Of a stretch of DNA of 64,000 nt, positions 9,012-58,947 are shown piece by piece (position 1 is the first letter of the stretch; each line of letters begins with the position of its first letter). The DNA lies in NCBI GenBank assembly GCA_951406725.2, contig OX597814.1, positions 214,458,001 through 214,522,000 on the forward strand. The letters are read 5' to 3'. This DNA is from Octopus vulgaris. Lineage: Eukaryota. The position numbers and the translations under genes are program-made. Below the pieces are notes generated by a model. That model was given only the letters and a program-made list of their open reading frames with translations. It was not told the origin of the DNA and made no database searches.

Positions 9012-9312
9012 TACAGGGTGTGATGGATAAATTGTCATCATTTTATATTTTACATTTCATGCATGCGCATTGTTCGTTATTGATTTTGTCAACTACACAG
9101 TATAGTAGGGTCAGTTGGGCACCGACTGTGAGAAAAATAGCACCATGATGCAATTCACCCTTCCAGAAATTTGGAAATGATATGCTGTACTGCTTGGCAT
9201 TCATTTCAGAGTGTTTGGGTGTCAGTCTGAGGACAGTGCAATCTGAAGATATGTACCGAGTATGATAAAAATCAAACATCCAGTCAACATCATGGTGTTT
9301 GGAGTGATCACC
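9012..9312 (+). mobile_element. Internally deleted Tc1/mariner-superfamily transposon remnant
   Basis: TA|CAGGGTG terminus, then HTH-like ECLGVSLRTVQ and KHPVNIMVFGVIT transposase motifs. Confidence 0.6.
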
Positions 9313-9423
9313 ACACAACTGTCCGGTGAATGAGAATGTGACACTCTGAGTAGCAGTTTTTTTGCGATACTTTTCATGGTGTTTTTTGCAGCTTTAATAA
9401 TAAAGTGTGTATACTTTACTCTA

Positions 9424-9457
9424 AGTTGAAAAAGTCACAAAGGCTGAAACCGGTACT
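9424..9457 (+). ncRNA. Minimal hammerhead-like motif with a U3-A8 core variant
   Basis: AG-UUGAAAA-AGUC-ACAAA-GGCU-GAAAC-CG-GUA^CU; palindromic stem III ACCGGU. Confidence 0.45.
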
Positions 9458-9654
9458 AAAATGTTATTCATGATAAACTTATTTTAGCGTTTTCTACCTT
9501 GTCTTACTTTTCTAATACATATCAACTCATGTGTTCCTTTTCAACCTTCTATATATATATATATAATATGAGGGAATATTATCCCAAACTTACAGGGAAA
9601 AATTCAATTTAGAAATACTAAAATCAAATTTCACAAAATATAATATAATATAAT

Positions 9655-9885
<231 letters not shown>

Positions 9886-11589: not shown

Positions 11590-11757
11590 TTATTTGTTTC
11601 AGTCATTGGACTGCGGCCATGCTGGGGCACCAGATGTAAATAAACCAACATTGACTGTCAAGTGATGGTGAGGGGTCAAACAGACATAGACACAGACAGA
11701 CAGATAGACACACACACACACATACACATGCACTCACTCTCTCTCTCACACACACAC

Positions 11758-11810
<53 letters not shown>

Positions 11811-11997
11811 CACACATACACACACACACACACACGACTGACTTCCACACAGGCTCTGTTTACGAAATTCACTTGCAAGGCATTGGTTGGCTGGGGGCCA
11901 TAGTAGAAGGTACTTGCTCATGGTGGTGTGCAGTAGGACAGAACCCAAAACCCTGCAGTTGCAAAGTGAGATTCTTAACCAAACAGCCATAGCTGCA
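11590..11997 (-). mobile_element. Diverged SINE family A
   Basis: Tail TTGTTTCAGTCATT.GACTGCGGCCATGCTGG, expanded CA/CT tract and a diverged head. Confidence 0.75.
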
Positions 11998-12317
11998 TCT
12001 ACACAAATAAAGATGTACCTGGCATCAAAAACTTGTAGGGTACAATGGAATGTGACCATTGGTAATCAATTGGAGGCTCTTTTTTAACAGTTCAAAGACA
12101 AGTGAAAAATGTTTCATTACACAACTTGCTTCAATTCCATTTTCAGGCCATCTTAGTCAAGATAATATAATATTAAAATGAAATTTTGCAAAGAACAAGT
12201 AAAACATGATTTTCTTTTTGTAGCATTTGGAAATTTCAACAAAAAATTTAAGAAAAACACTAGGTTACTTTTTATATTAAGGATGATTTTACCATAAAGG
12301 CAAATATATATTTAGTA

Positions 12318-12575
12318 TTGATCTGGGATCACAGATTTGAGATTTCTCACCAAGTGAAGAAAGCCAGATATTTGGACTTGGTTTCTAGGCACTTGTCAAA
12401 GGATGGCACACAGCTTTATTCCCTGTTGAAGTTAACTGCTGTGGTTTTTTTAGCAAGAGTGGCACACTTATTTCCTGTAGAAAAGACTAATATGAAAAAC
12501 AAGCAATTGAAGAAAGCCATCAAGGAGACAGCCATAGTAGCTGAAACTAGTTCAAGGTGGTTGTTGTTGATGAGG
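12318..12575 (+). pseudogene. C-terminal remnant of a HERO-like (restriction-like endonuclease) non-LTR retrotransposon ORF
   Basis: With frameshifts it reads W-DHRFEISHQVKKARYLDLV / KGWHTALFPVEVNCCGF / KQLKKAIKETAIVAETSSRWLLLMR. This matches the recalled terminal motif PWEE..EAHERK..KY..L...GW.....VEVGCRGF...RAI......AE.ASRWLW. Confidence 0.7.
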
Positions 12576-15500
12576 GTCCATGCTAATGTCTGTTCTATAG
12601 GCACTTCTGTCCATGCTAATGTCTGTTCTATAGGCACTTCTGTCCATGCTAACGTCTGTTCTATAGGCACTTCTGTCCATGCTAACGTCTGTTCTATAGG
12701 CACTTCTGTCGATGCTAACGTCTGTTCTATAGGCACTTCTGTCCATGCTAACGTCTGTTCTATAGGCACTTCTGTCCATGCTAACGTCTGTTCTATAGGC
12801 ACTTCTGTCCATGCTAACGTCTGTTCTATAGGCACTTCTGTCCATGCTAACGTCTGTTCTATAGGCACTTCTGTCCATGCTAACGTCTGTTCTATAGGCA
12901 CTTCTGTTCCTTCTGTTCTATAGGCACTTCTGCTAACGTCTGTTCTATAGGCACTTCTGTCCATGCTAACGTCTGTTCTATAGGCACTTCTGTTCATGCT
13001 AACGTCTGTTCTATAGGCACTTCTGTTCACGCTAACGTCTGTTCTATAGGCACTTCTGTCCATGCTAACGTCTGTTCTATAGGCACTTCTGTTCACGCTA
13101 ACGTCTGTTCTATAGGCACTTCTGTCCATGCTAACGTCTGTTCTATAGGCACTTCTGTCCATGCTAACGTCTGTTCCCATAGGCACTTCTGTCCACGCTA
13201 ACGTCTGTTCTATAGGCACTTCTGTCCATGCTAACGTCTGTTCTATAGGCACTTCTGTTCATGTCTAACGTCTGTTCTATAGGCACTTCTGTCCATGCTA
13301 AACTGTCTGTTCTATAGGCACTTCTGTTCACGCTAACGTCTGTTCTATAGGCACTTCTGTCCATGCTAACGTCTGTTCTATAGGCACTTCTGTTCACGCT
13401 AACGTCTGTTCTATAGGCACTTCTGTTCATGCTAACGTCTGTTCTTATAGGCACTTCTGTCCAGCTTCTGTCCATGCTAACGTCTGTTCTATAGGCACTT
13501 CTGTTCATGCTAACGTCTGTTCTATAGGCACTTCTGTCCATGCTAACGTCTGTTCTATAGGCACTTCTGTCCATGCTAACGTCTGTTCTATAGGCACTTC
13601 TGTTCACGTGCTAACGTCTGTTCTATAGGCACTTCTGTCCATGCTAACGTCTGTTCTATAGGCCACTTCTTCCATGCTAACGTCTGTTCTATATAGGCAC
13701 TTCTGTCCATGCTAACGTCTGTTCTATAGGCACTTCTGTCCATGCTAACGTCTGTTCTATAACGTCTGTTCTATAGGCTAACGTCTGTTCTATAGGCACT
13801 TCTGTTCACGCTAATGTCTGTTCTATAGGCACTTCTGTTCACGCTAACGTCTGTTCTATAGGCACTTCTGTCCATGCTAATGTCTGTTCTATAGGCACTT
13901 CTGTCCATGCTAACGTCTGTTCTATAGGCACTTCTGTCCATGCTAACGTCTGTTCTATAGGCACTTCTGTTCACGCTAACGTCTGTTCTATAGGCACTTC
14001 TGTTCATGCTAACGTCTGTTCTATAGGCACTTCTGTCCATGCTAACGTCTGTTCTATAGGCACTTCTGTTCATGCTAACGTCTGTTCTATAGGCACTTCT
14101 GTTCCATGCTAACGTCTGTTCTATAGGCACTTCTGTCCATGCTAACGTCTGTTCTATAGGCACTTCTGTTCTATAGGCACTTCTTCCATGCTAACGTCTG
14201 TTCTATAGGCACTCTTTACGCTTACGTCTGTTCTATAGGCACTTCTGTCCATGCTAACGTCTGTTCTATAGGCACTTCTGTCCATGCTAACGTCAATTCT
14301 ATAGGCACTTCTGTCCATGCTAATGTCTGTTCTATAGGCACTTCTGTTCATGCTAACGTCTGTTCTATAGGCACTTCTGTACATGCTAACGTCTGTTCTA
14401 TAGGCACTTCTGTCCATGCTAACGTCTGTTCTATAGGCACTTCTGTCCATGCTAACGTCTGTTCTATAGGCACTTCTGTCCATGCTAACGTCTGTTCTAT
14501 AGGCACTTCTGTTCCATGCTAACGTCTGTTCTATAGGCACTTCTGTCCATGCTAACGTCTGTTCTATAGGCACTTCTGTTCATGCTAACGTCTGTTCTAT
14601 AGGCACTTCTGTCCATGCTAACGTCTGTTCTATAGGCACTTCTGTCATGCTAACGTCTGTTCTATAGGCACTTCTGTCCATGCTAACGTCTGTTCTATAG
14701 GCACTTCTGTCCATGCTAACGTCTGTTCTATAGGCACTTCTGTCATGCTAACGTCTGTTCTATAGGCACTTCTGTCCATGCTAACTGCTACAACGCTAAC
14801 GTCTGTTCTATAGGCACTTCTGTCCATGCTAACGTCTGTTCTATAGGCACTTCTGTTCACGCTAACGTCTGTTCTATAGGCACTTCTGTTCATGCTAATG
14901 TCTGTTCTATAGGCACTTCTGTCCATGCTAACGTCTGTTCTATAGGCACTTCTGTCCATGCTAACGTCTGTTCTATAGGCACTTCTGTCCATGCTAACGT
15001 CTGTTCTATAGGCACTTCTGTTCATGCTAACGTCTGTTCTATAGGCACTTCTGTTCATGCTAACGTCTGTTCTATAGGCACTTCTGTTCACGCTAACGTC
15101 TGTTCTATAGGCACTTCTGTTCATGCTAACGTCTGTTCTATAGGCACTTCTGTCCATGCTAACGTCTGTTCTATAGGCACTTCTGTCCATGCTAACGTCT
15201 GTTCTATAGGCACTTCTGTTCACGCTTACGTCTGTTCTATAGGCACTTCTGTCCATGCTAACGTCTGTTCTATAGGCACTTCTGTCCATGCTAACGTCTG
15301 TTCTATAGGCACTTCTGTCCATGCTAACGTCTGTTCTATAGGCACTTCTGTCCATGCTAACGTCTGTTCTATAGGCACTTCTGTCCATGCTAACGTCTGT
15401 TCTATAGGCACTTCTGTACACGCTAACGTCTGTTCTATAGGCACTTCTGTCCACGCTAACGTCTGTTCTATAGGCACTTCTGTCCATGCTAATGTCTGTT

Positions 15501-18500
15501 CTATAGGCACTTCTGTCCATGCTAATGTCTGTTCTATAGGCACTTCTGTTCATGCTAACGTCTGTTCTATAGGCACTTCTGTCCATGCTAACGTCTGTTC
15601 TATAGGCACTTCTGTCCATGCTAACGTCTGTTCTATAGGCACTTCTGTCCATGCTAACGTCTGTTCTATAGGCACTTCTGTCCATGCTAACGTCTGTTCT
15701 ATAGGCACTTCTGTCCATGCTAACGTCTGTTCTATAGGCACTTCTGTCCATGCTAACGTCTGTTCTATAGGCACTTCTGTCCATGCTAACGTCTGTTCTA
15801 TAGGCACTTCTGTTCCATGCTAACGTCTGTTCTATAGGCACTTCTGTCCATGCTAACGTCTGTTCTATAGGCACTTCTGTCCATGCTAACGTCTGTTCTA
15901 TAGGCACTTCTGTCCATGCTAACGTCTGTTCTATAGGCACTTCTGTCCATGCTAACGTCTGTTCTATAGGCACTTCTGTCCATGCTAACGTCTGTTCTAT
16001 AGGCACTTCTGTCCATGCTAACGTCTGTTCTATAGGCACTTCTGTTCACGCTAACGTCTGTTCTATAGGCACTTCTGTCCATGCTAACGTCTGTTCTATA
16101 GGCACTTCTGTTCACGCTAACGTCTGTTCTATAGGCACTTCTGTTCACGCTAACGTCTGTTCTATAGGCACTTCTGTCCATGCTAACGTCTGTTCTATAG
16201 GCACTTCTGTCNNNNNNNNNNNNNNNNNNNNNNNNNNNNNNNNNNNNNNNNNNNNNNNNNNNNNNNNNNNNNNNNNNNNNNNNNNNNNNNNNNNNNNNNN
16301 NNNNNNNNNNNAGGCACTTCTGTCCATGCTAACGTCTGTTCTATAGGCACTTCTGTTCATGCTAACGTCTGTTCTATAGGCACTTCTGTCCATGCTAATG
16401 TCTGTTCTATAGGCACTTCTGTTCACGCTAACGTCTGTTCTATAGGCACTTCTGTTCACGCTAACGTCTGTTCTATAGGCACTTCTGTTCATGCTAACGT
16501 CTGTTCTATAGGCACTTCTGTTCATGCTAACGTCTGTTCTATAGGCACTTCTGTCCATGCTAACGTCTGTTCTATAGGCACTTCTGTCCATGCTCTCTAG
16601 GCACTTCTGCTAACGTCTGTTCTATAGGCACTTCTGTCCATGCTAACGTCTGTTCTATAGGCACTTCTGTCCATGCTAACGTCTGTTCTATAGGCACTTC
16701 TGTTCACGCTAACGTCTGTTCTATAGGCACTTCTGTTCATGCTAGTCTGTTCTATAGGCACTTCTGTCCATGCTAACGTCTGTTCTATAGGCACTTCTGT
16801 CCATGCTAATGTCTGTTCTATAGGCACTTCTGTCCATGCTAACGTCTGTTCTATAGGCACTTCTGTTCACGCTAACGTCTGTTCTATAGGCACTTCTGTC
16901 CATGCTAACGTCTGTTCTATAGGCACTTCTGTCCATGCTAACGTCTGTTCTATAGGCACTTCTGTCCATGCTAACGTCTGTTCTATAGGCACTTCTGTCC
17001 ATGCTAATGTCTGTTCTATAGGCACTTCTGTTCATGCTAACGTCTGTTCTATAGGCACTTCTGTCCATGCTAACGTCTGTTCTATAGGCACTTCTGTTCA
17101 TGCTAACGTCTGTTCTATAGGCACTTCTGTTCACGCTAACGTCTGTTCTATAGGCACTTCTGTCCATGCTAACGTCTGTTCTATAGGCACTTCTGTTCAT
17201 GCTAACGTCTGTTCTATAGGCACTTCTGTTCACGCTAACGTCTGTTCTATAGGCACTTCTGTTCATGCTAACGTCTGTTCTATAGGCACTTCTGTCATGC
17301 TAACGTCTGTTCTATAGGCACTTCTGTCCATGCTAACGTTCTGTTCTATAGTTCTGTCATGCTAACGTCTGTTCTATAGGCACTTCTGTCCATGCTAACG
17401 TCTGTTCTATAGGCACTTCTGTCCACGCTAACGTCTGTTCTATAGGCACTTCTGTCCATGCTAATGTCTGTTCTATAGGCACTTCTGTCCATGCTAACGT
17501 CTGTTCTATAGGCACTTCTGTCCATGCTAACGTCTGTTCTATAGGCACTTCTGTCCATGCTAATGTCTGTTCTATAGGCACTTCTGTTCATGCTAACGTC
17601 TGTTCTATAGGCACTTCTGTTCATAAAAAGCGCGCTAACGTCTGTTCTATAGGCACTTCTGTTCACGCTAACGTCTGTTCTATAGGCACTTCTGTCCATG
17701 CTAACGTCTGTTCTATAGGCACTTCTGTCCATGCTATCGTCTGTTCTATAGGCACTTCTGTCCATGCTAATGTCTGTTCTATAGGCACTTCTGTTCACGC
17801 TAACGTCTGTTCTATAGGCACTTCTGTTCATGCTAACGTCTGTTCTATAGGCACTTCTCTCCATGCAAACGTCTGTTCTATAGGCACTTCTGTTAGCGCT
17901 AACGACTGTTCTATAGGCACTTCTCTCCATGCTAACATCTGTTCTATAGGCACTTCTGTCCATGCTAATGTCTGTTCTATAGGCACTTCTGTCCATGCTA
18001 ACGTCTGTTCTATAGGCACTTCTGTTCACGCTAACGTCTGTTCTATAGGCACTTCTGTCCATGCTAATGTCTGTTCTATAGGCACTTCAGTCCATGCTAA
18101 CGTCTGTTCTATAGGCACTTCTCTCCATGCAAACGTCTGTTCTATAGGCACTTCTGTCCATGCTAACGACTGTTCTATAGGCACTTCTCTCCATGCAAAC
18201 GTCTGTTCTCTAGGCACTTCTGTCCATGCTTATGTCTGTCCTATAGGCACTTCTGTTCACGCAAACGTCTGTTCTATAGGTACTTCTGTTCATGCTAACG
18301 TCTGTTCTATAGGCACTTCTCTCCATGCTAACGTCTGTTCTATAGTCACTTCTGTTCACGCTAACCTCTGTTCTATAGGCACTTCTGTTCATGCTAACGT
18401 CTGTTCTATAGGCAATTCTGTCCAAGCTAACGTCTGTTCTATAGGCACTTCCGTTCACGCTAACATCTGTTCTATTGGCACTTCTGTTCACGCTAACGTC

Positions 18501-21211
18501 TGTTCTATAGGCACTTCTGTTCACGCTAACGTCTGTTCTATAGGCACTTCTGTTCACGCTAACGTATGTTCTATAGGCACTTATGTCCATGCTAACGTCT
18601 GTTCTATAGGCACTTCTGTCCATGCTAACGTCTGTTCTATAGGCACTTCTTTTTACGCTTACGTCTGTTCTATAGGCACTTCTGTTCATGCTAACGTCTG
18701 TTCTATAGGCACTTCTGTCCATGCTAACGTCTTTTCTATAGGCACTTCTGTTCATGCTAATGTCTGTTCTATAGGCACTTCTGTTCACTCTAACGTCTGT
18801 TCTATAGGCACTTCTGTCCATGCTAATGTCTGTTCTATAGGCACTTCTGTCCATGCTAACGTCTGTTCTATAGGCACTTCTGTCCATGCTAATGTCTGTT
18901 CTATAGGCACTTCTGTCCATGCTAACGTCCGTTCTATAGGCACTTCTGTTCACGCTAACGTCTGTTCTATAGGCACTTCTGTTCATGCTAATGTCTGTTC
19001 TATAGGCATTTCTGTCCATGCTCACGTCTGTTCTATAGGCACTTCTGTCCATGGTAATGTCTATTTTATAGGCACTTCTGTCCATGCTAATGTCTGTCCT
19101 ATAGGCACTTCTGTCCATGCTAACGTCTGTTCTATAGGCACTTCTGTTCACACTAACGTCTTTTCTATAGGCACTTCTGTTCATGCTAACGTCTGTTCTA
19201 TAGGCATTTCTGTCCATGCTAACCTCTGTTCTATAGGCACTTCTGTCCATGCTAACGTCTGTTCTATAGGCACTTCTGTCCATGCTAACGTCTGTTCTAT
19301 AGGCACTTCTGTCCATGCTAACGTCTGTTCTATAGGCACTTCTGTCCATGCTAACGTCTGTTCTATAGGCACTTCTGTCCATGCTAATGTCTGTTCTATA
19401 GGCACTTCTGTCCATGCTAACGTATGTTCTATAGGCACTTCTGTCCATGCTAACGTCTGTTCTATAGGCACTTATGTCCATGCTAACGTCTGTTCTTTAG
19501 GCACTTCTGTCCATGCTAATGTCTGTTCTATAGGCACTTCTGTTCACGCTAACGTCTGTTCTTTAGGCACTTCTGTTCACGCTAACGTCTGTTCTATAGG
19601 CACTTCTGTTCACGCTAACGTCTGTTCTATAGGCACTTCTGTTCACGCTAACGTCTCTTCTATAGGCACTTCTGTTCACGCTAACGTCTGTTCTATAGAC
19701 ACTTCTGTTCACGCTAATGTCTGCTCTATAGGCATTTCTGTCCATGCTAACGTCTGTTCTATAGGCACTTCTGTCCATGCTAACGTCTGTTCTATAGGCA
19801 CTTCTGTCCATGCTAATGTCTGTTCTATAGGCACTTCTGTTCACGCTAACGTCTGTTCTATAGGCACTTCTGTTCATGCTAACGTCTGTTCTATAGGCAC
19901 TTCTGTCCATGCTAACGTCTGTTCTATAGGCACTTCTGTTTACGCTAACGTCTGTTCTATAGGCACTTCTGTTCATGCTAACGTCTGTTCAATAGGCACT
20001 TCTGTCCATGCTAACGTCTGTTCTATAGGCACTTCTGTCCATGCAAACGTCTGTTCTATAGGCACTTCTGTCCATGCTAATGTCTGTTCTATAGGCACTT
20101 CTGTTCACGCTAACGTCTGTTCTATAGGCACTTCTGTTCATGCTAACGTCTGTTCTATAGGCACTTCTGTCCATGCTAACGTCTGTTCTATAAGCACTTC
20201 CGTTCACGCTAACGTCTGTTCTATAGGCACTTCTGTTCACGCTAAAGTCTGTTCTATAGGCACTTCTGTCCATGCTAACGTCTGTTCTATAGGCACTTCT
20301 GTCCATGCTAACGTCTGTTCTATAGGCACTTCTGTCCATGCTAATGTCTGTTCTATAGGCACTTCTGTTCACGCTAACGTGTGTTCTATAGGCACTTCTG
20401 TTCATGCTAACGTGTGTTCTATAGGCACTTCCGTCCATGCTAACGTCTGTTCTATAGGCAATTTTGTCCATGCTAACATCTGTTCTATAGGCACTTCCGT
20501 CCATGCTAACGTCTGTTCTATAGGCACTTCTGTCCATGCTAATGTCTGTTCTATAGGCACTTCTGTTCATGCTAACGTCTGTTCTATAGGCACTTCTGTT
20601 CATGCTAACGTCTGTTCTATAGGCACTTCTGTCCATGCTAACGTCTGTTCTATAAGCACTTCCGTTCACGCTAACGTCTGTTCTATAGGCACTTTTGTTC
20701 ACGCTAACGTCTGTTCTATAGGCACTTCTGTCCATGCTAACGTCTGTTCTATAGGCACTTCTGTCCATGCTATCGTCTGTTCTATAGGCACTTCTGTCCA
20801 TGCTAATGTCTGTTCTATAGGCACTTCTGTTCCCGCTAACGTGTGTTCTATAGGCACTTCTCTTCATGCTAACGTGTGTTCTATAGGCACTTCCATCCAT
20901 GCTAACATCTGTTCTATAGGCACTTCTGTCCATGCTAACATCTGTTCTATAAGCACTTCCGTCCATGCTAACGTCTGTTCTATAGGCACTTCTGTCCATG
21001 CTAATGTCTGTTCTATAGGCACTTCTGTTCACGCTAACGTGTGTTCTATGGGCACTTCTGTTCATGCTAACGTCTGTTCTATAGGCACTTCCGTCCATGC
21101 TAACGTCTGTTCTATAGGCACTTCTGTCCATGCTAACGTCTGTTCTATAGGCACTTCCGTCCATGCTAACGTCTGTTCTATAGGCACTTCTTTCCATGCT
21201 AATGTCTGTTC
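12576..21211. repeat. 33-bp minisatellite array, consensus GTCCATGCTAACGTCTGTTCTATAGGCACTTCT, roughly 260 visible units
   Basis: Directly visible head-to-tail units with no spacers. The array contains an assembly gap, so its true length is unknown. Confidence 0.98.
16212..16311. other. Assembly gap (100 N) inside the minisatellite
   Basis: Run of 100 N. Confidence 1.
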
Positions 21212-24782: not shown

Positions 24783-27700
24783 TTAGTCAAATCTTTTGTT
24801 GCCTTTATTTATACTATCACGTAAGTCTGGTTCTGAATGAAAAGTATGCATTTTACCATTTTCTTCCTCAGCTGCTTCTTCCGAAGCGGATTTTTGTAAT
24901 TGCTTCAGTTTGTCAATACGCTTTCGATCTGGTTCAAAAGAAGCAAAAAGTTCATGAAAACTATGACATCTTTCAGCATGATCATTGACTTCGTTTTCAG
25001 CAACTTTTTCAAATGATATAGGACTGTCATTAGCATTGACAAATTCCCTTGCGGATGATATACTCCAGCGACTTCTACTTTTATTTGATGAAGCTGGCGA
25101 TGACTTTTCTCTTTGCTTTTCATTATTAGAAGATTCATTTGGAGTTTCTCTACCTTGTTCATCTCTCACGTTATCATCAGACGAAGAGGGGCACTTCTCA
25201 GAGCTTTGTGACCGTTGTCTAGGTATGGGTAAAGGAGGTTTTGAAGCAGTGGAACTATCTTCTGTAGCTAAATTTTCATCAGAGAGTAATGGCTGAGGGC
25301 TCTCGTTTTCTTGCATCATCATTTGTTGAGCTATTACGATTTTTTGCCTTGCTTTTGCTTCATGTCGTTGTTTTACATTTCGTGGAGTCATAACCTTAGA
25401 AGATGATTGACTTTTTGGAGAAGATTTTGAGCTCTGTGAATCATCAGAAAACTTATTTCCTTGTTCTTCACTAATTTCACTGATTGGTCGTCTCTCATGT
25501 CTCGACCTGGTCCTAACTTTTCGATGACGATCTTCATCACTTGAGCTGAAAAGATCCAACATTTTGGCTATACTCTTTGAAACTGGTCGTTTTTTCTGTT
25601 GTACCATTTCAGCTGAACTGTCACTTGAACATGATTGTTCTTGCCGTAATTGTTGCTGGAAGTTCTGTTTTGAAATATTTCCATTTTCCAGAATTTCTTT
25701 GTTTCCATTACTGCTCTGGGATTGGCTACTAGAAGTTGTGTGTTTTACATCAAAATCAGGTGGTGTTGACTTTCTGTGATTCCTGTCGTCATCTCGTCCT
25801 GATTTTCGATGTAGACTAGAAGATCGTGGCGGAGGCTTGGGTCGAGGAGTACCATTAATCTGTCTTGAACTACCATCTGAAGTGTCAGATCGTGCGGAAG
25901 ATTTTGACCGTGATCCTTTTTCTACTGTTATTGAGGACAAATATACTCTTGGACCATCATTACCTTCTTTTCCACTATTTCTACTCTGGTGGAATTTCTT
26001 ACTTTCATGGTTCATTTCATTTGCTAGTGACCTCCTTTGGCGTCTTGTTCTTGCACGCCGTGTAGGGACATCAGAAGTAGACAATACTGAATCTCCTGAT
26101 GCATCTTCAGTTTTGATTAAAGGTGATTCAGTAACTGAAGGAGAATTTGATGTCTGAGATTCAGTTTTAACTGGGTATTTGCTACCAATATCTTTCACTG
26201 GAACTTGCATTAATTCTCGGTATCTTTGACTAGTGGTTAATCCATGGTCGGATGCTGACAAGTAGCGCATGTCAGAATGAAATGAGTCTGAACTGACGTG
26301 TCCAGCTGTGTTATCATACAGCTGGGAAAATGAAGAAGATAATCTAAAACAATGGCTTTCTTGGCTTGAATACGGAGAAGAAAAATTGCTTGGTTTGTTG
26401 CAGTCCAATAAGGTTTCATTGCCGACATTAAGTTGGGTGTAAATTTTTTCCAATTCATTAAGCGCTTCACTAAGTTTAGCTTTCCTATTTACAAAATGTT
26501 CTGTACCAGGTTTTTTGCTGCTTGAAGATTTAACATCAGCTGAAAGCATTGCACTCGTTGCAGGAGAGAACTTCTTGAGAGTGTTGAGAATTCTGTCAAG
26601 ATTTGACTCATCTGCTTTGAGTATCTTTGATTTAATTTCTGAAAGCTTATCTTCGACTTGACTCGCAAGAACTTTAAGTTCCTCTATATTTTCTTCTGGT
26701 TGAGCAGGTGTGTAGGTAGTTGGCTTTTCATTGTCTCTAAAAGCAAACATAACATTATTATTTCCTTCCTGGATATTCTTAATTAGAATGGCTAAATCAT
26801 CACCAGATGGGGAACGTTCCACCAGACCAGTGTTGATGAGTTTCTCTTTCAGCACGGAGGGATCTAGTTGATAGTTACCATTGACAACATTCTCATACTG
26901 TTTCTCTCCCAGTTTAGTCATAGACTGGTACATCACATTTCCATGGTTGCCTTCTTGAAGTTGTAAAAGATTTTGTTGGGAAGAAAACTCAGGACGTTCT
27001 GCAGAGGGACCGCTACTACAAGCAGCCTTTAACATTTGAGAATGAACTTCTAATTGATCTCCATGGTAAGACCCTGAATGATAAGACAGGGGCCTTTTTG
27101 GTGAACTTGCTTTGTGAGACATGTCCACGTGGCTGCCAAATATTTTTCTTTGACTATTTGACATTCTGTTACCAAGGACTGGCTGTAGATCCAAAAGAAC
27201 TTCATCTAATGCATTCATGTTAGCAATCTTGTTTGAAGATTTGAGACTTGAAGTTGAATATGGTTTGGATTGAGGTTTATTATCAGCATTAGATGCTGGA
27301 AAAGAAGGTAAGGAAAAAGGTTTTATATGCTGAGTAGATGCTGCATCCATTTGACAAGAAGTAAACGCTTTTGTAGAATCAATTTCAGTTGAGTTCTTTC
27401 TTTCTGAAGGAATTTCTTTCATAAGATGATCAAAGTTTGTTAATTCCTCAATTTCTTTCCAAAAAGGGTCTTCAGAAAAGGGGATTGTTTCTAGAGTTCT
27501 GGCTGTAACTCGTTCAATACTAACTGGTCCTTGATGACTGTCCATTTGAGGTGACCATATCTCTGAATCTTTGAGTTTTTCTTGCATTCCACCAATCAAA
27601 TTTTTCCAGTTACCATGTTCTGCATTTCTTCTGTTTGATATCATTTGACTAATGCTATGGTCAGATGATATATCACTTTTCCTTCTGAGGAAATTTCCAG

Positions 27701-30700
27701 CTGGTATGTTGGTATTGTTTATATCATGAGGATACAGTACAGTTTTCTTCTCATTTGCTTTCAATTCCAAAGTAGTAGATCCACTATTTGGTGCAGAAGC
27801 AGCGGTATGATGCTTCGGAATAAAAAACTGATAATCTTTGTTTGTCAGTGGGCTGGAGGCTGGTATAGCTGTATCACCTGTGTTATTACTTGAAAAATTT
27901 TTTACTGGAAGGAAAAGGGGGCTGTCTATTGTCGGTGATTTATTTATTCCTTCATGATAGCTATGGCTGAGACCATTTGCAGTTGTGTTATTTACATCTG
28001 GTGATATTTGGAGAAGACTTTTGTTTATATCGACCATAATTTTTGAATGGGTTTTACCTTTAAATAAGTCACCATCAGATATAGACCCGGTTTGTGAAAG
28101 ACTTCTGGTCATATTGCTTTTACTCATATTTTTATTTACATTAACTGGTTTGGTAGGTACATCTGAAGAATAAGGCTTTGTTGCTACAGTATCTTCATCG
28201 ATAACAGCTAAATATTTTGACCATTCACTCGCCATATGTTTTACTGTTGTTGGCAAATGGTTCTCCCCAATGTCAGGAATTTCTCCTGTTTTAATGTCGA
28301 CTGGTAGATTTTTGTGTGACGTTTTCAGTTTAGTTTCCCACTTTTTCACTCTTTCAGCTACTTCAATGTCATATTCTACATCAGAAAACATTCCAGTATC
28401 TTTTATTGGTAAGGTTAACTCATTTTCTTTCATACTAGCGTTAGTTGCGCTTACTATTGAGGGTGCAGAACAGCTTAAAGATTTTTTAATTACCTCCGGA
28501 GAGTTTTTTATTTTGTTAGATTCTGACACCAAAATACTTTCTGAAATAGTTATAAGTGGTTTATACTGGGCCATGTTTTCAGCATTTTCCAATGGCTTTG
28601 ATGGCTGATTATCTCTCTGGTTTTGGTTGGCTGCTTGTTGGGCATTATCATGAGATTTTAGCCAAGACATACAAGATTGGAATGCACTGCTCTCACAGAC
28701 AGGGGATTGTGTAATTAAAACTGGCTCTGAAATTCTAATTGGGGTTGGGCGATGAATTGGTTTTCTATCTTCAGTATAAATTTGTGAAGATGTAATGGGT
28801 TGTTTGTTTCTAGGAGTAACGGGAATTAGATTTGAACCTGTACATTGCTGTGACATTAAGACTGGTTCAGAGGACATTTTTAGTAGAACAGGTTTTGAAG
28901 TAGTGACTAATTCTGGAATTTTAGGCATAACTGGTTGTAACATCGGAATTGGTTCTGAGACCTTTGGTAAACCGGATGTTTCTGGTGCTGATATAGGTTT
29001 CTCATTTTGTGAGTTTGAATGCTGTGTTAATTGAAGAGTATTAGTGACACTCGTTGGTTCTATGTATTGTTTATTTGATTCTAACAGCTCATCAAGTGAA
29101 TCTCCATCACTGTAACATTTTGATGAATAATTCGTTGTCTGTTTTATATTCGATTCTTTGGAAATTGAATCTATGCCTGTCTTAGATCTACGATTTTTTT
29201 GTTTTTGCTCGGATTTGGATTTTTCCTTTTTTTGTTCTTGGAAAGGATGTTGATCCACTTTGGCAGGTAATTGAGGTGATTCTGGTTGTGTCGGAACATA
29301 TGGCTGAAAACTCAATGGGCGAGTGTTCAATTGAGGATTATGCCCATTCGATAAGAGAAAAGCATTTTGCAAGGAACTATTTGTTTCAAAGTTTCTGTTT
29401 TGATTAATGAAATTTTCAGGTTGTTGTTGCTGAAATGTTTGTTGCTGAAATTGTTGTTGTTGTTGTTGCTGCTGCAGCTGAGGAGGAGGAGGAGGAGGAG
29501 GACTGATACATTGGATATTGTTCCCAAAAGCAAAGGCTGTGGAATTTCTATTTGGATTGCTTGCAGCTGCCTTCCTGTTTTCACACTGAAAATTTGTATT
29601 TATTATTTGAGAATCTGTTCCATTTTTATTTTCTTTCTGTAAAGAATTGTTGAAATTATTTGCTAAACCAATATTTTGGTTATTTTTGCGAGGATATTCA
29701 ACAACAACCATTCTTGGTTTTGGTTTTTCCGGTTGGCTTGGAGGTTTGTTATCTCTTTTGAATGTGAGAGGTGGAGACAAGCTTCCACTTGCAGGAAATC
29801 CTAGAGACATAGGTCGGTAGCAAGGAAAAGAAGCTGTCATTTGAGCTGGCTTTGAAACTTCTGTCTTCAGTTTTGGTTCTAGAACAATTTGATCACCTGA
29901 AATATTAAGATAATTTGTGTACTCTTGACCAGATCTAGCGGTTACACCTTCATATTCCCCTATGGAGGCTTTTCTACCTCTTCCACGGCCTGCTTGAACT
30001 TGGGAAAGTCTCTGACGAATTTGGTTTGAAATTTCAGAGTGTGGGTTGGTTTCTTCATCAGATGTGGGATAATTTTCCATTCTCTGTTGTCTTATTTCTT
30101 CTAACCGCTGAAACTTAGCTTTTTGAGGAATGGCTGCATTAACTCTGTTAGGATTACTCCATGTATTTTGATGGTCCTGCTTGTTTCCACTTGAAGGCGA
30201 TGGAATACCTGAATGTGGCCGATTGATTGAATTTGGCATGGTTTGGCTTTTGTTTTCTTGTGGTGGTGGAGGTGGTGGTGGAGTGATTAGTTTCCATTCT
30301 GTTGCTTTGGTTTTATCATGCCGTTTTTTCTTTTTTATCAAAAGTGGGTTCCGTGTCCATCGCTTTGGTCCACTATCTCCCGAATCAGTGTCGCTGTCCG
30401 ACAGATTAATGTTAACGATATCATCATCGGAGAACTGGCGCAAACATAATGGACGAGGACTTTTGCGTGGTTCATGACTGATAGCCCATTGTGGTCCAGA
30501 TGTATCTTGTCTACTAGGGCTCAGGTGTCGTCGAGGACCTTCACTTCTTGAACGATGTCGTGCTTTGGCTTGACTGTCACTAGGTACAGCAACTCTTCTT
30601 CCTTGTCTTTCATGTCTTTCCGTCAAAGGGTCTTCCGTTGCTTGACTGGGTGTTCTTGACCCTTGACCTCTAGACAGACTTTTCAGTTTCTCATCTGCAC

Positions 30701-30701
30701 T
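24783..30701 (-). CDS. Giant terminal coding exon (~1,972 codons + TAA) of an unidentified gene. The product is S/Q/N/P/K-rich and mostly disordered, with poly-P/poly-Q tracts and a short helical or coiled-coil-like block (IEELKVLASQVEDKLSEIKSKI...KLSEALNELEKIYTQL).
   Basis: A 1947-aa stop-free ORF of non-repetitive sequence in AT-rich DNA. The frame continues upstream of the tracked TTG start (SADEKLKSLSRGQGSRTPSQATEDPL) to a polypyrimidine + TTTCAG acceptor (AG at 30703-30702). 30701-30626 = 75 nt, so the acceptor is in frame (phase 0). The stop is TAA at 24785-24783. No upstream exon was recognised in the window. Confidence 0.9.
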   Translation of the reverse strand, partial: SADEKLKSLSRGQGSRTPSQATEDPLTERHERQGRRVAVPSDSQAKARHRSRSEGPRRHLSPSRQDTSGPQWAISHEPRKSPRPLCLRQFSDDDIVNINLSDSDTDSGDSGPKRWTRNPLLIKKKKRHDKTKATEWKLITPPPPPPPQENKSQTMPNSINRPHSGIPSPSSGNKQDHQNTWSNPNRVNAAIPQKAKFQRLEEIRQQRMENYPTSDEETNPHSEISNQIRQRLSQVQAGRGRGRKASIGEYEGVTARSGQEYTNYLNISGDQIVLEPKLKTEVSKPAQMTASFPCYRPMSLGFPASGSLSPPLTFKRDNKPPSQPEKPKPRMVVVEYPRKNNQNIGLANNFNNSLQKENKNGTDSQIINTNFQCENRKAAASNPNRNSTAFAFGNNIQCISPPPPPPPQLQQQQQQQQFQQQTFQQQQPENFINQNRNFETNSSLQNAFLLSNGHNPQLNTRPLSFQPYVPTQPESPQLPAKVDQHPFQEQKKEKSKSEQKQKNRRSKTGIDSISKESNIKQTTNYSSKCYSDGDSLDELLESNKQYIEPTSVTNTLQLTQHSNSQNEKPISAPETSGLPKVSEPIPMLQPVMPKIPELVTTSKPVLLKMSSEPVLMSQQCTGSNLIPVTPRNKQPITSSQIYTEDRKPIHRPTPIRISEPVLITQSPVCESSAFQSCMSWLKSHDNAQQAANQNQRDNQPSKPLENAENMAQYKPLITISESILVSESNKIKNSPEVIKKSLSCSAPSIVSATNASMKENELTLPIKDTGMFSDVEYDIEVAERVKKWETKLKTSHKNLPVDIKTGEIPDIGENHLPTTVKHMASEWSKYLAVIDEDTVATKPYSSDVPTKPVNVNKNMSKSNMTRSLSQTGSISDGDLFKGKTHSKIMVDINKSLLQISPDVNNTTANGLSHSYHEGINKSPTIDSPLFLPVKNFSSNNTGDTAIPASSPLTNKDYQFFIPKHHTAASAPNSGSTTLELKANEKKTVLYPHDINNTNIPAGNFLRRKSDISSDHSISQMISNRRNAEHGNWKNLIGGMQEKLKDSEIWSPQMDSHQGPVSIERVTARTLETIPFSEDPFWKEIEELTNFDHLMKEIPSERKNSTEIDSTKAFTSCQMDAASTQHIKPFSLPSFPASNADNKPQSKPYSTSSLKSSNKIANMNALDEVLLDLQPVLGNRMSNSQRKIFGSHVDMSHKASSPKRPLSYHSGSYHGDQLEVHSQMLKAACSSGPSAERPEFSSQQNLLQLQEGNHGNVMYQSMTKLGEKQYENVVNGNYQLDPSVLKEKLINTGLVERSPSGDDLAILIKNIQEGNNNVMFAFRDNEKPTTYTPAQPEENIEELKVLASQVEDKLSEIKSKILKADESNLDRILNTLKKFSPATSAMLSADVKSSSSKKPGTEHFVNRKAKLSEALNELEKIYTQLNVGNETLLDCNKPSNFSSPYSSQESHCFRLSSSFSQLYDNTAGHVSSDSFHSDMRYLSASDHGLTTSQRYRELMQVPVKDIGSKYPVKTESQTSNSPSVTESPLIKTEDASGDSVLSTSDVPTRRARTRRQRRSLANEMNHESKKFHQSRNSGKEGNDGPRVYLSSITVEKGSRSKSSARSDTSDGSSRQINGTPRPKPPPRSSSLHRKSGRDDDRNHRKSTPPDFDVKHTTSSSQSQSSNGNKEILENGNISKQNFQQQLRQEQSCSSDSSAEMVQQKKRPVSKSIAKMLDLFSSSDEDRHRKVRTRSRHERRPISEISEEQGNKFSDDSQSSKSSPKSQSSSKVMTPRNVKQRHEAKARQKIVIAQQMMMQENESPQPLLSDENLATEDSSTASKPPLPIPRQRSQSSEKCPSSSDDNVRDEQGRETPNESSNNEKQREKSSPASSNKSRSRWSISSAREFVNANDSPISFEKVAENEVNDHAERCHSFHELFASFEPDRKRIDKLKQLQKSASEEAAEEENGKMHTFHSEPDLRDSINKGNKRFD

Positions 30702-30720
30702 CTGAAATTATATAAAAAAA
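30702..30720 (-). promoter_or_regulatory. 3' splice acceptor of the giant exon
   Basis: The minus strand reads TTTTTTTATATAATTTCAG|AGT GCA GAT, in frame with the long ORF. Confidence 0.75.
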
Positions 30721-36193: not shown

Positions 36194-36551
36194 CATTCAT
36201 GTATGTAAGTATGTGTGTGCAAGGCTTTGGTCATCCCTGGTCTATAGTAGAAGACACTTGCCCAAGGTACCTTGCTGTGGGACTGAACCCAAGGTCATGT
36301 GGTTGGGAAGCAAGCTTCTTACCACACAGTCATGCATTTGCCCAGTAATTACATGTAGTATTATAAAATAGTGTAAAGTGATAGTGTAGAATGAGGTAAC
36401 CATATAATAATACAACTATATAGACGAGGAAATAATAACTTTCAAGATAGGAAAGTGATATGATTATAAGTATAAAGAGGTTATGACATAAATATCGTTA
36501 CAATATGGATGAAGTAAAAATAACTTTTTTTTTACTAGATGTTAATTCAAA

Positions 36552-36948
36552 TCTTTATATATAAAAGTAAGGTTGGGCGCTGTCTGTCTCCTACGATTTA
36601 GATTCCTAACTACTCCCATATTTCACGGTGCAGTTTAACCAAAATCGGGTATCTTATAGTCGTGATTCATATCGAGCCCTTCTGGGTATTAGCGCGCGTC
36701 TACGATGAGTCTACGATTTAAAAAAAAATTTACCATAATTTTTTTCCCATTTTTAATGCATTTTTGGCATATATAAGGGAAGTAACTCTCTAAAAAATTA
36801 TTATTAAATCTCAGAACGTAAAAAGCTACAGTAACCCCCCCCCTTTGTGGTTAGCCATATTGAGATGGCTATTATACTTTACATCTCTAAAAATGCTTAT
36901 ATACTTATTTCCCTTACAAATCCGAGCAATGCCGGGCGATACTGCTAG
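36552..36948 (+). mobile_element. Non-autonomous Helitron-like element
   Basis: Starts A|TC-TTTATATATAAAAG. Ends with hairpin CCGAGCAATGCCGG, then GCGATACTG-CTAG|T. Confidence 0.75.
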
Positions 36949-38102
36949 TTATAAGTATAAAGAGATTATGATATAAATATCATTACAATATGGATGAAGT
37001 AAAAATAATTTTTTTTTTTACTAGATGTTAATTCAAATGACAGTATAAAGTGTTAATATAGTATGAAATGACAAAACAATGTAAAATGATTTAAAATTTT
37101 AAAGTAAAATAAAAGAATATGTGATGTGGTGTTATGGGTACTACCCTGATAAAATAGAGATATATATAAAAAAAGTAAAAATACTATAAAAAGTAAAAGA
37201 TATATAGGTTAAGAGTAGGAGAGAAATATATGAGAAGGAAAATACTAAACAGAATGATTCCAGGTGGAAGGTTCCACTCTACCATATGTTGGTTTATTGT
37301 TACTTTGGTTCTAAGAAGCGTGTGTTGTTCATGTACAACATATATGTTTCATTTCAGTTTGTGATAACCATCTGGATATTATTAGAAACGGTGTGTTCAT
37401 GAAGAAGATATGAGTTGTGTCTTTGGTATATACATTGCACTGTGTTCTATTGCCTTAGACAAGATCTTCCACTACATGCTGTATCCTTCAAATACCAAAA
37501 ATAAGTTATGTTTCTCATAGAAGGGTATCTGAATGAATGGGGATGTTAATTATATTTGAACTTGAAATCATTTGCAGTGAGATCAATATATACTTTCGAG
37601 AAAGAGTTGGTCATAACATTGCATTAATAAATAACACTTCTTATCGGTAATTTTATTTAATAGTCTGGGAAAAGTACAATTACAACCTGATCCATGTCCT
37701 GTTTACATTACTGATATTGTTTCTAGGTCTATCAGTTCTCTCTCCTTGTTTCTTTTCTGTGTATCTTTCTGTCGAAGAGTGTAGGCTCGAAACGTAAAAG
37801 ACTTGTTTTATTTCTATTCCTGAGCGCCATACTAATACATTATTTGTTTGTACTCCATCTGCCTTCGTCTTTTGTCTATTTTCACAAACCTTCCCGTTCT
37901 ATATCTATTTAACTTAGGTAAATTAGAAGAAACAATACTTCGAGAAGTGCAGTTATCTATGTTGCAGTTGACTTTTGGAGAGTGGGTTTATTCTAAAAAA
38001 CAACAGCTCATGTTTTGCATTAATAGTTATATTTTGAGTTGATTCATTGAATCTATCAGTATAGAACTTGTGTTTAAAATACTAGAAAATAATAACTATT
38101 AT

Positions 38103-53392: not shown

Positions 53393-55615
53393 AATGAGGG
53401 GATGTAAGGAAATATAACAATTGTACTTTTTTTTTTAGGAGGTATTAATAAGGCCTGAAAAATGGTTGCAACAATTTGGTTTGTCAAGAATTTACTGCAA
53501 TATTATTGTGCTTACTAAAAATTTTTTTATTGGATCATTATCTTAGGAAAATGGTTTCTTTTGATAAATGATTTGAAGTTAAAAATAACATCAGATAGAG
53601 GCTAAAAAGAATAGCATTAGATAGAGGCTAAAAAGAATATGATTTGAGAAAACAAAAGAAATCATTTTTTTCTATCGTATAATTGTTGATACCCGACTAC
53701 CTCTACTAACGAGTTACAATAATCTTTTATTGACAAAATTAGATAAAAACAAAGTCTGTAAACGTAAAATGCACTGTTTATAAATAACTATAACTATGTT
53801 TATCTCTGTTTTCTCAAGTTAAAGAAAACAAGTATTAAGAACAGTAAGAACTGAAGCAAACAGATGGTTAGGTAGGCTCTTGAAAGCTGTACATCAACAA
53901 ATATGTAGGGAGAAATTAATTTCTCTATAAAACATTTCATGAAGTAAACTTAAATATTGACATACACTTGGGATATCATGAAATGCAAAAAAAAAAAATT
54001 AAATAAAGACAAAATTTTCTAAACATACAAAAGTATTTACTTGATCTGATCTCAGTGGATTACGAAATAAAAGGAAGTCAGAATACTGGAAAAGTTACAA
54101 ATATACAAATAATGAGCCAAAAGGTTTTAAAAAAAAAACGTAATGTATGTTTCCAACATTACTTTTTGAATCATAAGCATAAAATTTAACTCTTTCTTCA
54201 TATTCACACACACACACAAAAAAAAAATAATAAGTATGTAAATAACATACTGAACAAAAATTTGGATTGACACTCTAAATATTTATGCAACTTGAAATAC
54301 AAATATATGCAAAAAGTAATTTATATATTAATACCAGTATCTTTTGTATGGTTCCTAATCATCCTAGCACATCAAAGTTAAAAGTTTGTTGGCATTAAAA
54401 AAAAAGTTTATCCCATAATAATCTAAATTCAAGACCAGTCCAAATTGCAAGGATTAAAAGAATCATCTAAATTAGAGACATAGAATGTCTACAAAAGATG
54501 CAATCTATATCTGCCTTTGATTAATTTTTAGAAATTTGTGTAATACTCTAACAAGAAGTCAACTAAAATGGAAATATTGATAGAGATATATCTAAATTAA
54601 TAGGGGAATGTAGAACTACTGGACAAGAAAGTGTGTGAAGTTAATGTGATTAATCTTTAAGTTTAATTAATAAAAAATATATGTTGACAAAAGAAGTTTA
54701 AAGAAGGAATTTGAAGACTGTCTAAACTTATGTAAAGTTTTGAGGACTGTTCAACGGTCTAGCAATAAGAATGAGTTTAAGAAGTGAGGGAAAAAGAAGT
54801 GTGAGCTGTGGGATAAAATGGTAAAGTTCAGAAAAGGAATAGATGTTATAGAATGTGTAGAAACAGAAGGAGCTTGATGCTCTGATAATTGAAAGATTTT
54901 TGTGATAGTAGGTTTGTGATATATTTTTGTAACCAGAGTTGAGTGTGTAGCTTTCCTAAGTTGGTGGTTGCATTACCTGGTACATATCTATCCCTTTATC
55001 AAGTAGTACTGCTTTGGTAATGTTGGCTCATATGAGTGTGTAAAAACTGTTCAAGAATTATAGCATCTGGCAATTGCTGCCAGATAATTTATGTATATTT
55101 TGGGTCAGAATAACAGTCTTGTGCAGGCTTAAGCACATACCTAATTCAGAGCAACCAGAGGTAAAAAAATTGCTTAATTCTTAAAGTGTCCTTCTGTATT
55201 GTACTATTAATACTTTAGCATCAGCAGAATGAAACAGTTCATAAAGAACACTTGAGTCTTTTTTTTTATTTTAGTGTATGAAGAAAAGAGCCTAAATATT
55301 GCTGCAAGTTTGAAGCACAATTATCTGATGGGTTTCACAAAGCAAGGATTTGCAAAGCTAAAAATAATATGCCAAAAAAAAATGGAAGGGCTTAGTTTAT
55401 AGCCTAGTTTAATAACAACAGCTACTACGAAGGCTTCTGACTTAAAATGTGCTGTGAGTTACATGTTAGCAAATATATTTCAGAAAATACATACAAAATT
55501 ATCAATCCTACATGAGTATATTGGATATATTTGTAAAACTATGTTAGAGAAATTTCTAGATTAATGCATTTAATAAATAACAATTTTCACAACTCATTTT
55601 ACTTCTTTTGTAGTC

Positions 55616-55785
55616 TGGGTATTAGCGCACGTCTATGATGAGTCTACGATTTAAAAAAAATTTACCATAATTTTTCCCCATTTTTAATGCAATTTTTTGC
55701 TATTATATAAGGGAAGTAACTCTCTAAAAATGCTTATATAGTTTTTTCCCTTACAAACCCGAGCAACGCCGGGCGATACTGCTAG
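55616..55785 (+). mobile_element. 5'-truncated copy of the Helitron-like element
   Basis: Same body and CCCGAGCAACGCCGGGCGATACTGCTAG|T end. Confidence 0.75.
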
Positions 55786-58051: not shown

Positions 58052-58947
58052 CTAGCAGTATCGCCCGGCGTTGCTCGGGTTTGTAAGGGAAATAACTATA
58101 TAAGCATTTTTAGAGAGTTATAGCAAAAAAATGCACTAAAAATGGAAAAAAAAATGATGGTAAATTTTTTTTTAAATCGTTGACTCATCGTAGACATTTT
58201 TAGAGAGTTACTTCCCTTATATAATAGCAAAAAAATGCATTAAAATGGAAAAAAATGATGGTAAATTTTTTTTAAAATCGTAGACTCATCGTAGACGCGT
58301 GCTAATACCCAGAAGGGCTCGATATGAATCACAACTATAAGATACCCGGTTTTGGTTAAACTGCACCGCAAAATGTGGGAGTAGTTAGGAATCTAAATCG
58401 TAGGAGACAGACACACAACCTTACTTTTATATATAAAGATTTGTGCAACAACTAAAACATTCGGTTGTGCAAATTGTTTGCACAGGAAACCTGCCCTGTG
58501 TGGCGGTAATTGCCGTTTTTGTGGATCTGTTTCAGCTTTTTTAGCGATTTCTGTTTTGGCAACTTCAAGCCATGAAGTCGTTGTTCTAAAAGAACGCTGG
58601 TCTCCTTGACAATGCATTACGACGTTGATTTCCTTACACTCCCTTCCCCACAGCTTCACGAGGGAGGGAAGAAGGGGGAGAAGCAACACAGGTGCAGGTG
58701 TGAGCGTGGACGCCAACTCCGCCACCATCGACACACGAAAAAATATGCATTAAAATGGAATAAAAAAATGATGTTAAATTATTTTTTAAATCATAGACTC
58801 ATTGTAGACGCGCGCTAATACCCAGACAGGCTCGATATGAATCACGACTATAAGATACCCGAATTTGGTTAAACTACTGTGGGAGTAATTAGGAATCTAA
58901 ATCGGAGGAGACAGACACTCACACAACTTCACCTTTATATATAAAGA
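58052..58947 (-). mobile_element. Composite Helitron-like element (one 3' end, two 5' ends)
   Basis: CTAG end at 58052; TC-TTTATATATAAA 5' termini at 58439 and 58947; GC-rich unique segment ~58440-58740. Confidence 0.75.

What the first reader, a model, noticed from the sequence alone, without database searches (positions are those of the whole stretch)
36464..37037. Helitron-like insertion flanked by an 88-bp direct duplication
Seen: the element has 5'-TC, a subterminal hairpin and a CTAG-3' end at an A|T site, yet 36464-36551 is repeated right after the CTAG at 36949-37037 (about 4 substitutions and 1 indel). Known: canonical Helitrons insert between A and T with no target-site duplication. 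Inference: a non-canonical integration or repair route, such as strand invasion with re-replication of ~90 bp of target, or mobilisation by a target-primed machinery with widely staggered nicks.
Basis: partly seen in the sequence, partly recalled or inferred. Interest (0 to 1): 0.7.

Follow-up and report, generated by a model that had tools for sequence, protein, structure and literature searches.

The report
Helitron insertions with rare long duplications
A small rolling-circle transposon sits between two copies of an 88-base piece of host DNA that a related species carries only once, a footprint also seen at one other surveyed copy and likely made when the element's two ends were joined at two different AT sites during insertion.

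Summary
A 397-bp non-autonomous Helitron-type element (36552-36948, TC...CTAG) lies between two copies of a single-locus 88/89-bp segment. An outgroup species, in two studies, has one copy of the segment and no element, so the duplication is real and lineage-specific.

The family is otherwise canonical: 90 of 96 unconstrained copies sit at A|T, with no target-site duplication. One of 348 other intact copies (L302) shows the same form, with 69 bp. In both cases the outer ends of the duplication are also A|T. Every candidate target fits the family's extended target motif poorly, and there is no microhomology at the element's 3' end.

Best reading (0.4, inferred): a rare aberrant insertion in which the 5' and 3' strand transfers use two AT sites 70-90 bp apart. 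Insertion at the junction of an older tandem duplication, a homologue-assisted route, unequal crossover and repair remain possible. Target-primed mobilisation is rejected.

No function is apparent; interest is modest and mechanistic.

The parts
36463..36464 (+). Upstream outer junction of the duplication, an A|T dinucleotide (site 1; TGA|TTAT)
   Evidence: Sequence. Outgroup contigs run through it with no listed difference at these bases. Scores below all 166 real targets.
36464..36551 (+). Left copy D of the 88-bp host segment; carries derived G at 36480 and 36497; contains an unused CTAG at 36535-36538
   Evidence: Outgroup X12 has A at both places.
36552..36948 (+). Non-autonomous Helitron-type element, 397 bp, 5'-TC to CTAG-3'; 95-96% identical to the 39 best other copies; 14 substitutions in 396 bases (3.5%) from the majority of 29 close copies
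36921..36936 (+). Subterminal GC-rich hairpin ending 12 bases before the 3' end, weakened in this copy
36945..36948 (+). 3' terminal CTAG, joined to T
36949..37037 (+). Right copy D' of the host segment (89 bp); derived T at 36972, where organism B has C
37037..37038 (+). Downstream outer junction of the duplication, an A|T dinucleotide (site 2; CAAA|TGAC)
   Evidence: Sequence. In outgroup X12 the single segment continues directly into GACAGTAT. 4 of 166 real targets score as low.

Best explanation
This is an ordinary non-autonomous Helitron-type copy whose insertion likely went wrong in a specific way: the transposase would have joined the element's 3' CTAG to the T of one AT site and its 5' TC to the A of a second AT site 88 bases downstream, so that the target between the two sites was copied. 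SHOWN: one copy of the segment and no element in the outgroup; precise element ends; A|T at both inner and both outer junctions; the same anatomy at a second locus (69 bp); poor fit of the outer sites to the family's target motif. INFERRED: the extra copy came either from strand-displacement synthesis started at the target nick before the 5' transfer was completed (single molecule), or from the sister chromatid; and a poor target provokes the split. The locus is non-coding and no function is proposed.
For: (1) The empty site has one copy, in two studies of organism C. (2) The two copies look equal at origin: changes fall on both (36480 and 36497 left; 36972 right), and 4 substitutions in 88 bases fits the element's 3.5% divergence doubled. 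(3) L302 repeats the anatomy: 69 bp, 67 of 69 identical, anchored at both junctions, outer ends AAAA|TCGT and AATA|TCCG. (4) The free outer letters are A and T at both loci: chance about 0.10 per locus and 0.01 for two if neither site was a target. (5) In both loci the half-sites touching the element fit the target motif passably (D end 141 and 27, D start 4 and 9 of 166 real targets score as low), while the right half of site 2 does not (1 and 0 of 166). This is what joining each end at a different site predicts. (6) Helraiser work shows DNA synthesis starting at transposase nicks and about 50% aberrant circle junctions before enrichment (PMC5876387); that work concerns the donor, not the target.
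Against: Only two cases, one of them the ascertained locus. If one site was a normal target, the other outer letter has about a 0.32 chance per locus (0.10 for two), so point 4 is weak against one-site models. At L302 the upstream site scores about the same as the inner junction (6 versus 5 of 166), so the half-site argument holds in only 3 of 4 comparisons. A 2-3 base A|T microhomology is also typical of ordinary tandem duplications here (10 of 31 have AT at the junction). No intermediate was seen, and nothing in the passages I read shows this product experimentally.
Confidence: 0.4

Rival explanations
1. An ordinary tandem duplication with an AT microhomology arose first, after the split from organism C, and a canonical insertion then hit its junction by chance.
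For: Short two-copy tandem duplications are common here: 31 in 1.98 Mb, 10 with AT at the junction. L185 and L195 show elements inserted inside one copy of an older local duplication. The D|D junction is the best-scoring candidate target at this locus. The outgroup cannot exclude an intermediate state.
Against: Expected junction hits among 348 insertions are 0.017 (0.05 if all 31 junctions count), and 1 was seen. Both junctions would be unusually poor targets (8 and 5 of 166 score as low).
Confidence: 0.17
2. A resident element at one site acted again locally. It either made a read-through circle of element plus segment that recombined into the empty homologue, or transferred only one end onto the nearby AT site of the empty homologue.
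For: 3' bypass with flank transduction and circles are shown for Helraiser (PMC4778049 passages; PMC5876387). This family forms head-to-tail and element-plus-spacer arrays (L054, L116, L122, L142, L395). New insertions are heterozygous, so an empty homologue is available (inference).
Against: It needs a first canonical insertion at site 1 or site 2, and these score 0 and 4 of 166 here and 6 and 0 of 166 at L302. The segments end in CAAA and AATA, not CTRR, and an internal CTAG at 36535 was not used.
Confidence: 0.15
3. Two independent insertions of the family, 88 bp apart on different alleles, recombined within the element (unequal crossover), leaving one hybrid element between two copies of the segment.
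For: It explains all four A|T junctions at once and uses a well-known process (repeat-mediated recombination; general knowledge, and PMC2211543 seen as a search listing only). The family is abundant: 3,733 exact 5'-motif matches from four non-overlapping patterns.
Against: All four sites would be normal targets, yet 0, 4, 6 and 0 of 166 real targets score as low. Both duplications are under 100 bp although flanks of about 1.5 kb (median) were searched. No sign of chimerism in this element, though that test is weak because the family is naturally mosaic.
Confidence: 0.12
4. A canonical insertion at one site was followed by host repair (strand invasion or template switching while the single-strand loop was filled in), which copied the segment. 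This is closest to the first reader's first suggestion.
For: There are 2-3 bases of microhomology (AT here, ATC at L302) at the 5' junction. It needs only one free outer letter per locus (about 0.10 for two loci).
Against: There is no microhomology at the element's 3' end at either locus. The single canonical target it needs scores poorly at both possible sites in this locus. The switch must land exactly on the element end.
Confidence: 0.12
5. The element was inserted by a target-primed retrotransposon machinery with widely staggered nicks, or the duplication is an assembly artefact.
For: Only that long direct repeats flank the element.
Against: There is no tail, both ends are fixed, and short duplications do not exceed a swapped-flank control. 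The left junction is present in run X2, and the right junction in X2, X4, X5 and X18. The two copies differ at 5 places.
Confidence: 0.04

Closest known systems
Canonical Helitrons, e.g. Helraiser/Helibat (PMC4778049 passages; PMC5876387 passages and first part of Discussion; PMC4224331 passages) and wheat Xuan-Feng (PMC13286980 passages)
   Same: 5'-TC, CTAG-3', subterminal hairpin, insertion between A and T, AT-rich preference on the 3' side of the target, no target-site duplication at nearly all copies.
   Different: Two of 349 intact copies have 69-88 bp of unique target copied exactly to both ends, with A|T also at the outer ends. No autonomous partner was tied to this family here.
Helitron head-to-tail arrays and 3' read-through (PMC4067079, PMC12001565, PMC5876387; passages)
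   Same: Host or spacer DNA is repeated together with the element; such arrays occur in this family (L054, L116, L122, L142, L395).
   Different: Arrays repeat the element as well. Here one element lies between two copies of local, single-locus DNA that the outgroup has once.
'Insertion with long target duplication' of bacterial restriction-modification units (PMC2853133; search listing and start of abstract only)
   Same: An insert flanked by a target duplication far longer than classical ones.
   Different: Bacterial, and not a rolling-circle transposon. I did not read its mechanism section.
Repeat-mediated unequal crossover (e.g. Alu-Alu duplications, recalled; PMC2211543 as listing only)
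   Same: End product of one repeat copy at the junction of a direct duplication.
   Different: It needs two normal insertion sites, and here the sites fit the family's target motif poorly.

Membership tests
Canonical Helitron (non-autonomous) | 5'-TC terminus | tested here: met
   36552-36553; 28 of the 29 closest copies also start TC
Canonical Helitron (non-autonomous) | CTRR-3' terminus | tested here: met
   CTAG at 36945-36948; 28 of the 29 closest copies end CTAG
Canonical Helitron (non-autonomous) | Short hairpin 10-15 bases from the 3' end | tested here: met
   Five-pair GC stem in L004 (-5.4 kcal/mol); weakened to -2.9 in this copy
Canonical Helitron (non-autonomous) | Insertion between A and T | tested here: met
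   90 of 96 copies whose two flanking bases were not fixed by my search pattern; this copy has A|TC and CTAG|T
Canonical Helitron (non-autonomous) | No target-site duplication (family level) | tested here: met
   Exact short repeats in 263 copies match a swapped-flank control; 347 of 349 intact copies lack a junction-exact long duplication
Canonical Helitron (non-autonomous) | No target-site duplication (this insertion) | tested here: not met
   88/89-bp duplication, single copy in the outgroup. This insertion is therefore filed as a variant footprint, not a canonical one.
Canonical Helitron (non-autonomous) | Many copies with the same ends at unrelated sites, and an empty site | tested here: met
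   orthologous empty site
Canonical Helitron (non-autonomous) | An autonomous RepHel element sharing the termini | tested here: inconclusive
   A scan of 393 loci and the window with recalled Rep/Pif1 motifs found one short Rep-like fragment (L195), not shown to share the ends. No genome-wide protein search was run.
Helentron / DINE-1 type | Ends flanked by a variable number of Ts, T-rich insertion preference (PMC4067079 passages) | tested here: not met
   Fixed A|TC and CTAG|T junctions
Helentron / DINE-1 type | Subterminal inverted repeats | not tested
   No dedicated test was run
Target-primed (non-LTR) retroelement | Short target-site duplications at most copies (recalled) | tested here: not met
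   197 of 263 copies have none; the rest match the control
Target-primed (non-LTR) retroelement | Poly(A) or simple-repeat 3' tail and variable 5' truncation (recalled) | tested here: not met
   Fixed CTAG end and fixed TC start in the 29 closest copies

The most novel reading that the evidence does not exclude
Helitron integration is two separable strand transfers. The 5' end reads the left half of a target and the 3' end reads the right half, and on poor targets the two can land on AT sites 70-90 bp apart, giving rolling-circle transposons a previously undescribed class of long target duplications. At about 0.3% of insertions, that is at least ten loci in this genome, and a fossil record of the unsolved target step.
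Probability: 0.4. Interest if true: 0.62.

Novelty: new variant of a known kind. Interest (0 to 1): 0.4.

Why it matters
How a Helitron joins its two ends to the target is the least understood step of its cycle; the part of the Helraiser Discussion I read covers donor and circle steps and gives no detail on the target step. If these duplications are insertion products, they show that the two strand transfers can be uncoupled and that target DNA can be re-replicated at the nick. That can be tested in existing Helraiser or wheat insertion data sets by pairing left and right junctions. It would also be a small source of local duplications and a caution for tools that reject Helitrons with flanking repeats. 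For this locus no effect on a gene is evident: no reading frame of 90 codons or more overlaps it, and no Rfam family matches.

Tried and rejected
- Duplicated segment as part of another repeat: only two matches genome-wide.
- Segment start as a cryptic element 5' end: 11 of 115 other right flanks resemble the 5' end as well as D' does; rejected.
- Chimerism of the element: nearest neighbours for the 5' and 3' parts of this copy include the same 397-bp type, and the family mixes end variants naturally, so the test is uninformative.
- My first preferred model, two allelic insertions recombined (40%), was lowered after the target-motif scoring.
- The motif and A|T counts were partly fixed by my search patterns, so I recomputed them on unconstrained positions; the result held.
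- Runs X4, X5 and X18 (organisms B, D) hold the element's 3' end, D' and the right flank, but no contig covers the left flank or left copy; X19 (76% read) covers neither. Missing cover proves nothing, so whether organism B has one copy or two is open.
- X20 (organism E) has two low-depth contigs, neither touching the element; inconclusive.
- One search gave 26 flank-similarity hits: 19 were low-complexity, mostly TA microsatellite, and 5 were element arrays or composites.
- One search gave 48 rows anchored at only one junction. I inspected about 15 of those loci and found arrays, composites, or insertions inside older duplications; the rest were short or weak matches that I did not inspect.
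- The swapped-flank control gave 2 complex hits in 786 pairs, which I did not inspect.
- Duplications longer than the flank held (median 1.5 kb, 5th percentile 0.76 kb) would be missed.
- Eight literature searches listed no paper whose title or abstract start describes long duplications flanking Helitrons. The library lacks most subscription papers, and I opened no supplements, where such insertion junctions could be tabulated.

Full report
Observation. The window holds X-D-H-D'-Y. D is 36464-36551, H is a 397-bp element from TC (36552) to CTAG (36948), and D' is 36949-37037. D and D' differ by 4 substitutions and 1 indel. D matches nowhere else in the 2.8-Gb genome. No frame of 90 codons or more and no Rfam family overlaps the site. 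Earlier scan notes call the genome an octopus; I did not test this.

The family. A DNA search gave 3,742 candidates, of which 40 were scored; the 39 best other copies are 95-96% identical over the full length. Four non-overlapping 5' patterns match 1,468, 1,261, 157 and 847 places. Among copies whose flanking bases were not fixed by my patterns, 90 of 96 lie at A|T. Exact short repeats around 263 copies follow a swapped-flank control. A hairpin lies 12 bases from the end. The family thus works like a canonical non-autonomous Helitron as described in PMC4778049, PMC5876387, PMC4224331 and PMC13286980 (passages). I did not identify an autonomous partner.

The empty site. In run X9 (organism C) one 1,103-bp contig covers 36335-36524 and continues without a gap at 37011-37383, so it has one D and no element. 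Only 22 records of X9 were laid, against 9,097-17,360 in the other three runs, so the family is nearly absent from C at 85% likeness. Run X12 (organism C, another study) has one contig from 36335 through D straight into Y. Run X2 (organism A) has contigs across the left junction (1 difference) and the right junction (3 differences). X4, X5 and X18 (organisms B, D) carry element end, D' and Y. So the insertion predates the A/B split and an artefact is unlikely, though the left junction rests on one outside run. Changes fall on both copies: D has derived G at 36480 and 36497, and D' has derived T at 36972. Four substitutions in 88 bases is compatible with the element's 3.5% distance from its family majority if both copies date from the insertion.

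How common. I examined 393 loci (1.98 Mb, mostly contigs C1-C3, chosen by exact patterns, so not a random sample). They gave 494 3' ends, 387 paired with a 5' end, 374 unique with at least 150 bases of flank, and 349 with both termini intact. Two have a complex duplication anchored at both junctions: this locus and L302 (69 bp, 67 of 69 identical). Leaving out the ascertained locus, the rate is 1 of 348 (95% interval 0.007-1.6%). Other similarities that I inspected were TA microsatellites, element arrays and composites, or insertions inside one copy of an older duplication. Background DNA in the same loci has 31 two-copy tandem duplications, 10 with AT at the junction, among 208,056 AT sites, which predicts 0.017 junction hits in 348 insertions.

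Junction anatomy. At both loci the outer ends are also A|T: TGA|TTAT and CAAA|TGAC here, AAAA|TCGT and AATA|TCCG at L302. That has a chance of about 0.01 for two loci if neither site was a target, and about 0.10 if one was (base frequencies). There is no microhomology between the element's 3' end and the DNA upstream of D at either locus; the 5' junction has AT and ATC. The family prefers W at -3, no G at -2, and AT at +6/+7 (166 sites). With leave-one-out scoring, the numbers of real targets scoring as low are, for this locus, 0 (upstream site), 4 (downstream site) and 8 (D|D junction), and for L302, 6, 0 and 5. By halves, the D ends are normal (141 and 27), the D starts low (4 and 9), the Y starts very low (1 and 0), and the X ends 0 and 36. 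So no candidate is a typical target, and the halves touching the element fit better than the outer halves in 3 of 4 comparisons.

Mechanism. These points favour an aberrant single insertion (0.40). The transposase would nick the target at the upstream A|T. The freed 3' end would prime displacement synthesis, as host polymerases are proposed to do at Helraiser donor nicks (PMC5876387). The element's CTAG would be joined to the displaced T, and its TC to the A at a second A|T 70-90 bases on. Using the sister chromatid for the second join gives the same product. All of this is inference from two loci. The rivals are a chance hit at the junction of an older duplication (0.17), a second local action of a resident element onto the empty homologue (0.15), unequal crossover between two allelic insertions (0.12), repair after a canonical insertion (0.12), and target-primed insertion or artefact (0.04). 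The crossover model was my first choice and lost ground on the motif scores and the short lengths. An earlier scan note favours unequal crossover for a Helitron-bounded array elsewhere in this genome (e1-9520962); I did not test it.

Comparison with what is known. The passages I read state that Helitrons make no target-site duplication, and they describe arrays and 3' read-through. Eight searches listed no report of long junction-exact duplications around Helitrons; the library is incomplete and I read no supplements. The scan's own index had no finding with all my words. It does hold unchecked notes of long, variable duplications at bacterial REP-type elements, which those notes link to HUH enzymes.

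Verdict. The feature is real, lineage-specific and recurrent at a low rate. It is a new variant footprint of a known kind of element, with no evident function. Its value is as a testable clue to the Helitron target step. Interest 0.40; 0.62 if the split-target reading is confirmed genome-wide.

Noticed in passing
flanks of 166 family copies in L002-L304: The family has an extended target motif beyond A|T: A or T at -3 (161 of 166), never G at -2, and a second AT downstream (A at +6 in 135 and T at +7 in 132 of 166, counting the target T as 0; no G at either). I did not check whether this motif is described.
   Followed up: partly
L302:2545-3084 (from G000:C2:203503770-203509769): Second element with a junction-exact 69-bp duplication and A|T at both outer ends; two more family copies lie within 2.4 kb.
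   Followed up: yes
L054, L116, L058, L120, L139, L395, L050, L057, L329: Composite elements and head-to-tail arrays in which this element forms the 3' part of a larger repeated unit with shared junctions.
   Followed up: partly
L185:2250-3160 (minus) and L195:2725-3700: Elements inserted inside one copy of a 85-175 bp local duplication that itself brackets another short repeat; the second copy is a paralogous empty site. Long duplications around other insertions may be common in this genome.
   Followed up: partly
L319:1456-2671: Two elements of different subtypes, each preceded by the same 47 bases but followed by different DNA; unexplained.
   Followed up: partly
L195:2540-2700: A short Helitron Rep-like coding fragment (PDLFITFT motif) just upstream of a family copy.
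   Followed up: no
window 58052-58438, 58741-58946, 55614-55785: Three more full or partial copies of the family in the window; the full one has a plain A|T junction.
   Followed up: partly
window 12576-21211: An 8.6-kb satellite with a 33-bp unit.
   Followed up: no
window 24783-30707 (minus): A 1,974-codon open frame rich in Ser, Pro and Gln, likely a giant exon of a host gene, 5.8 kb from the finding.
   Followed up: no
window 36220-36332: A 113-bp short repeat with at least nine other copies in the window, 130 bp left of the duplication.
   Followed up: no
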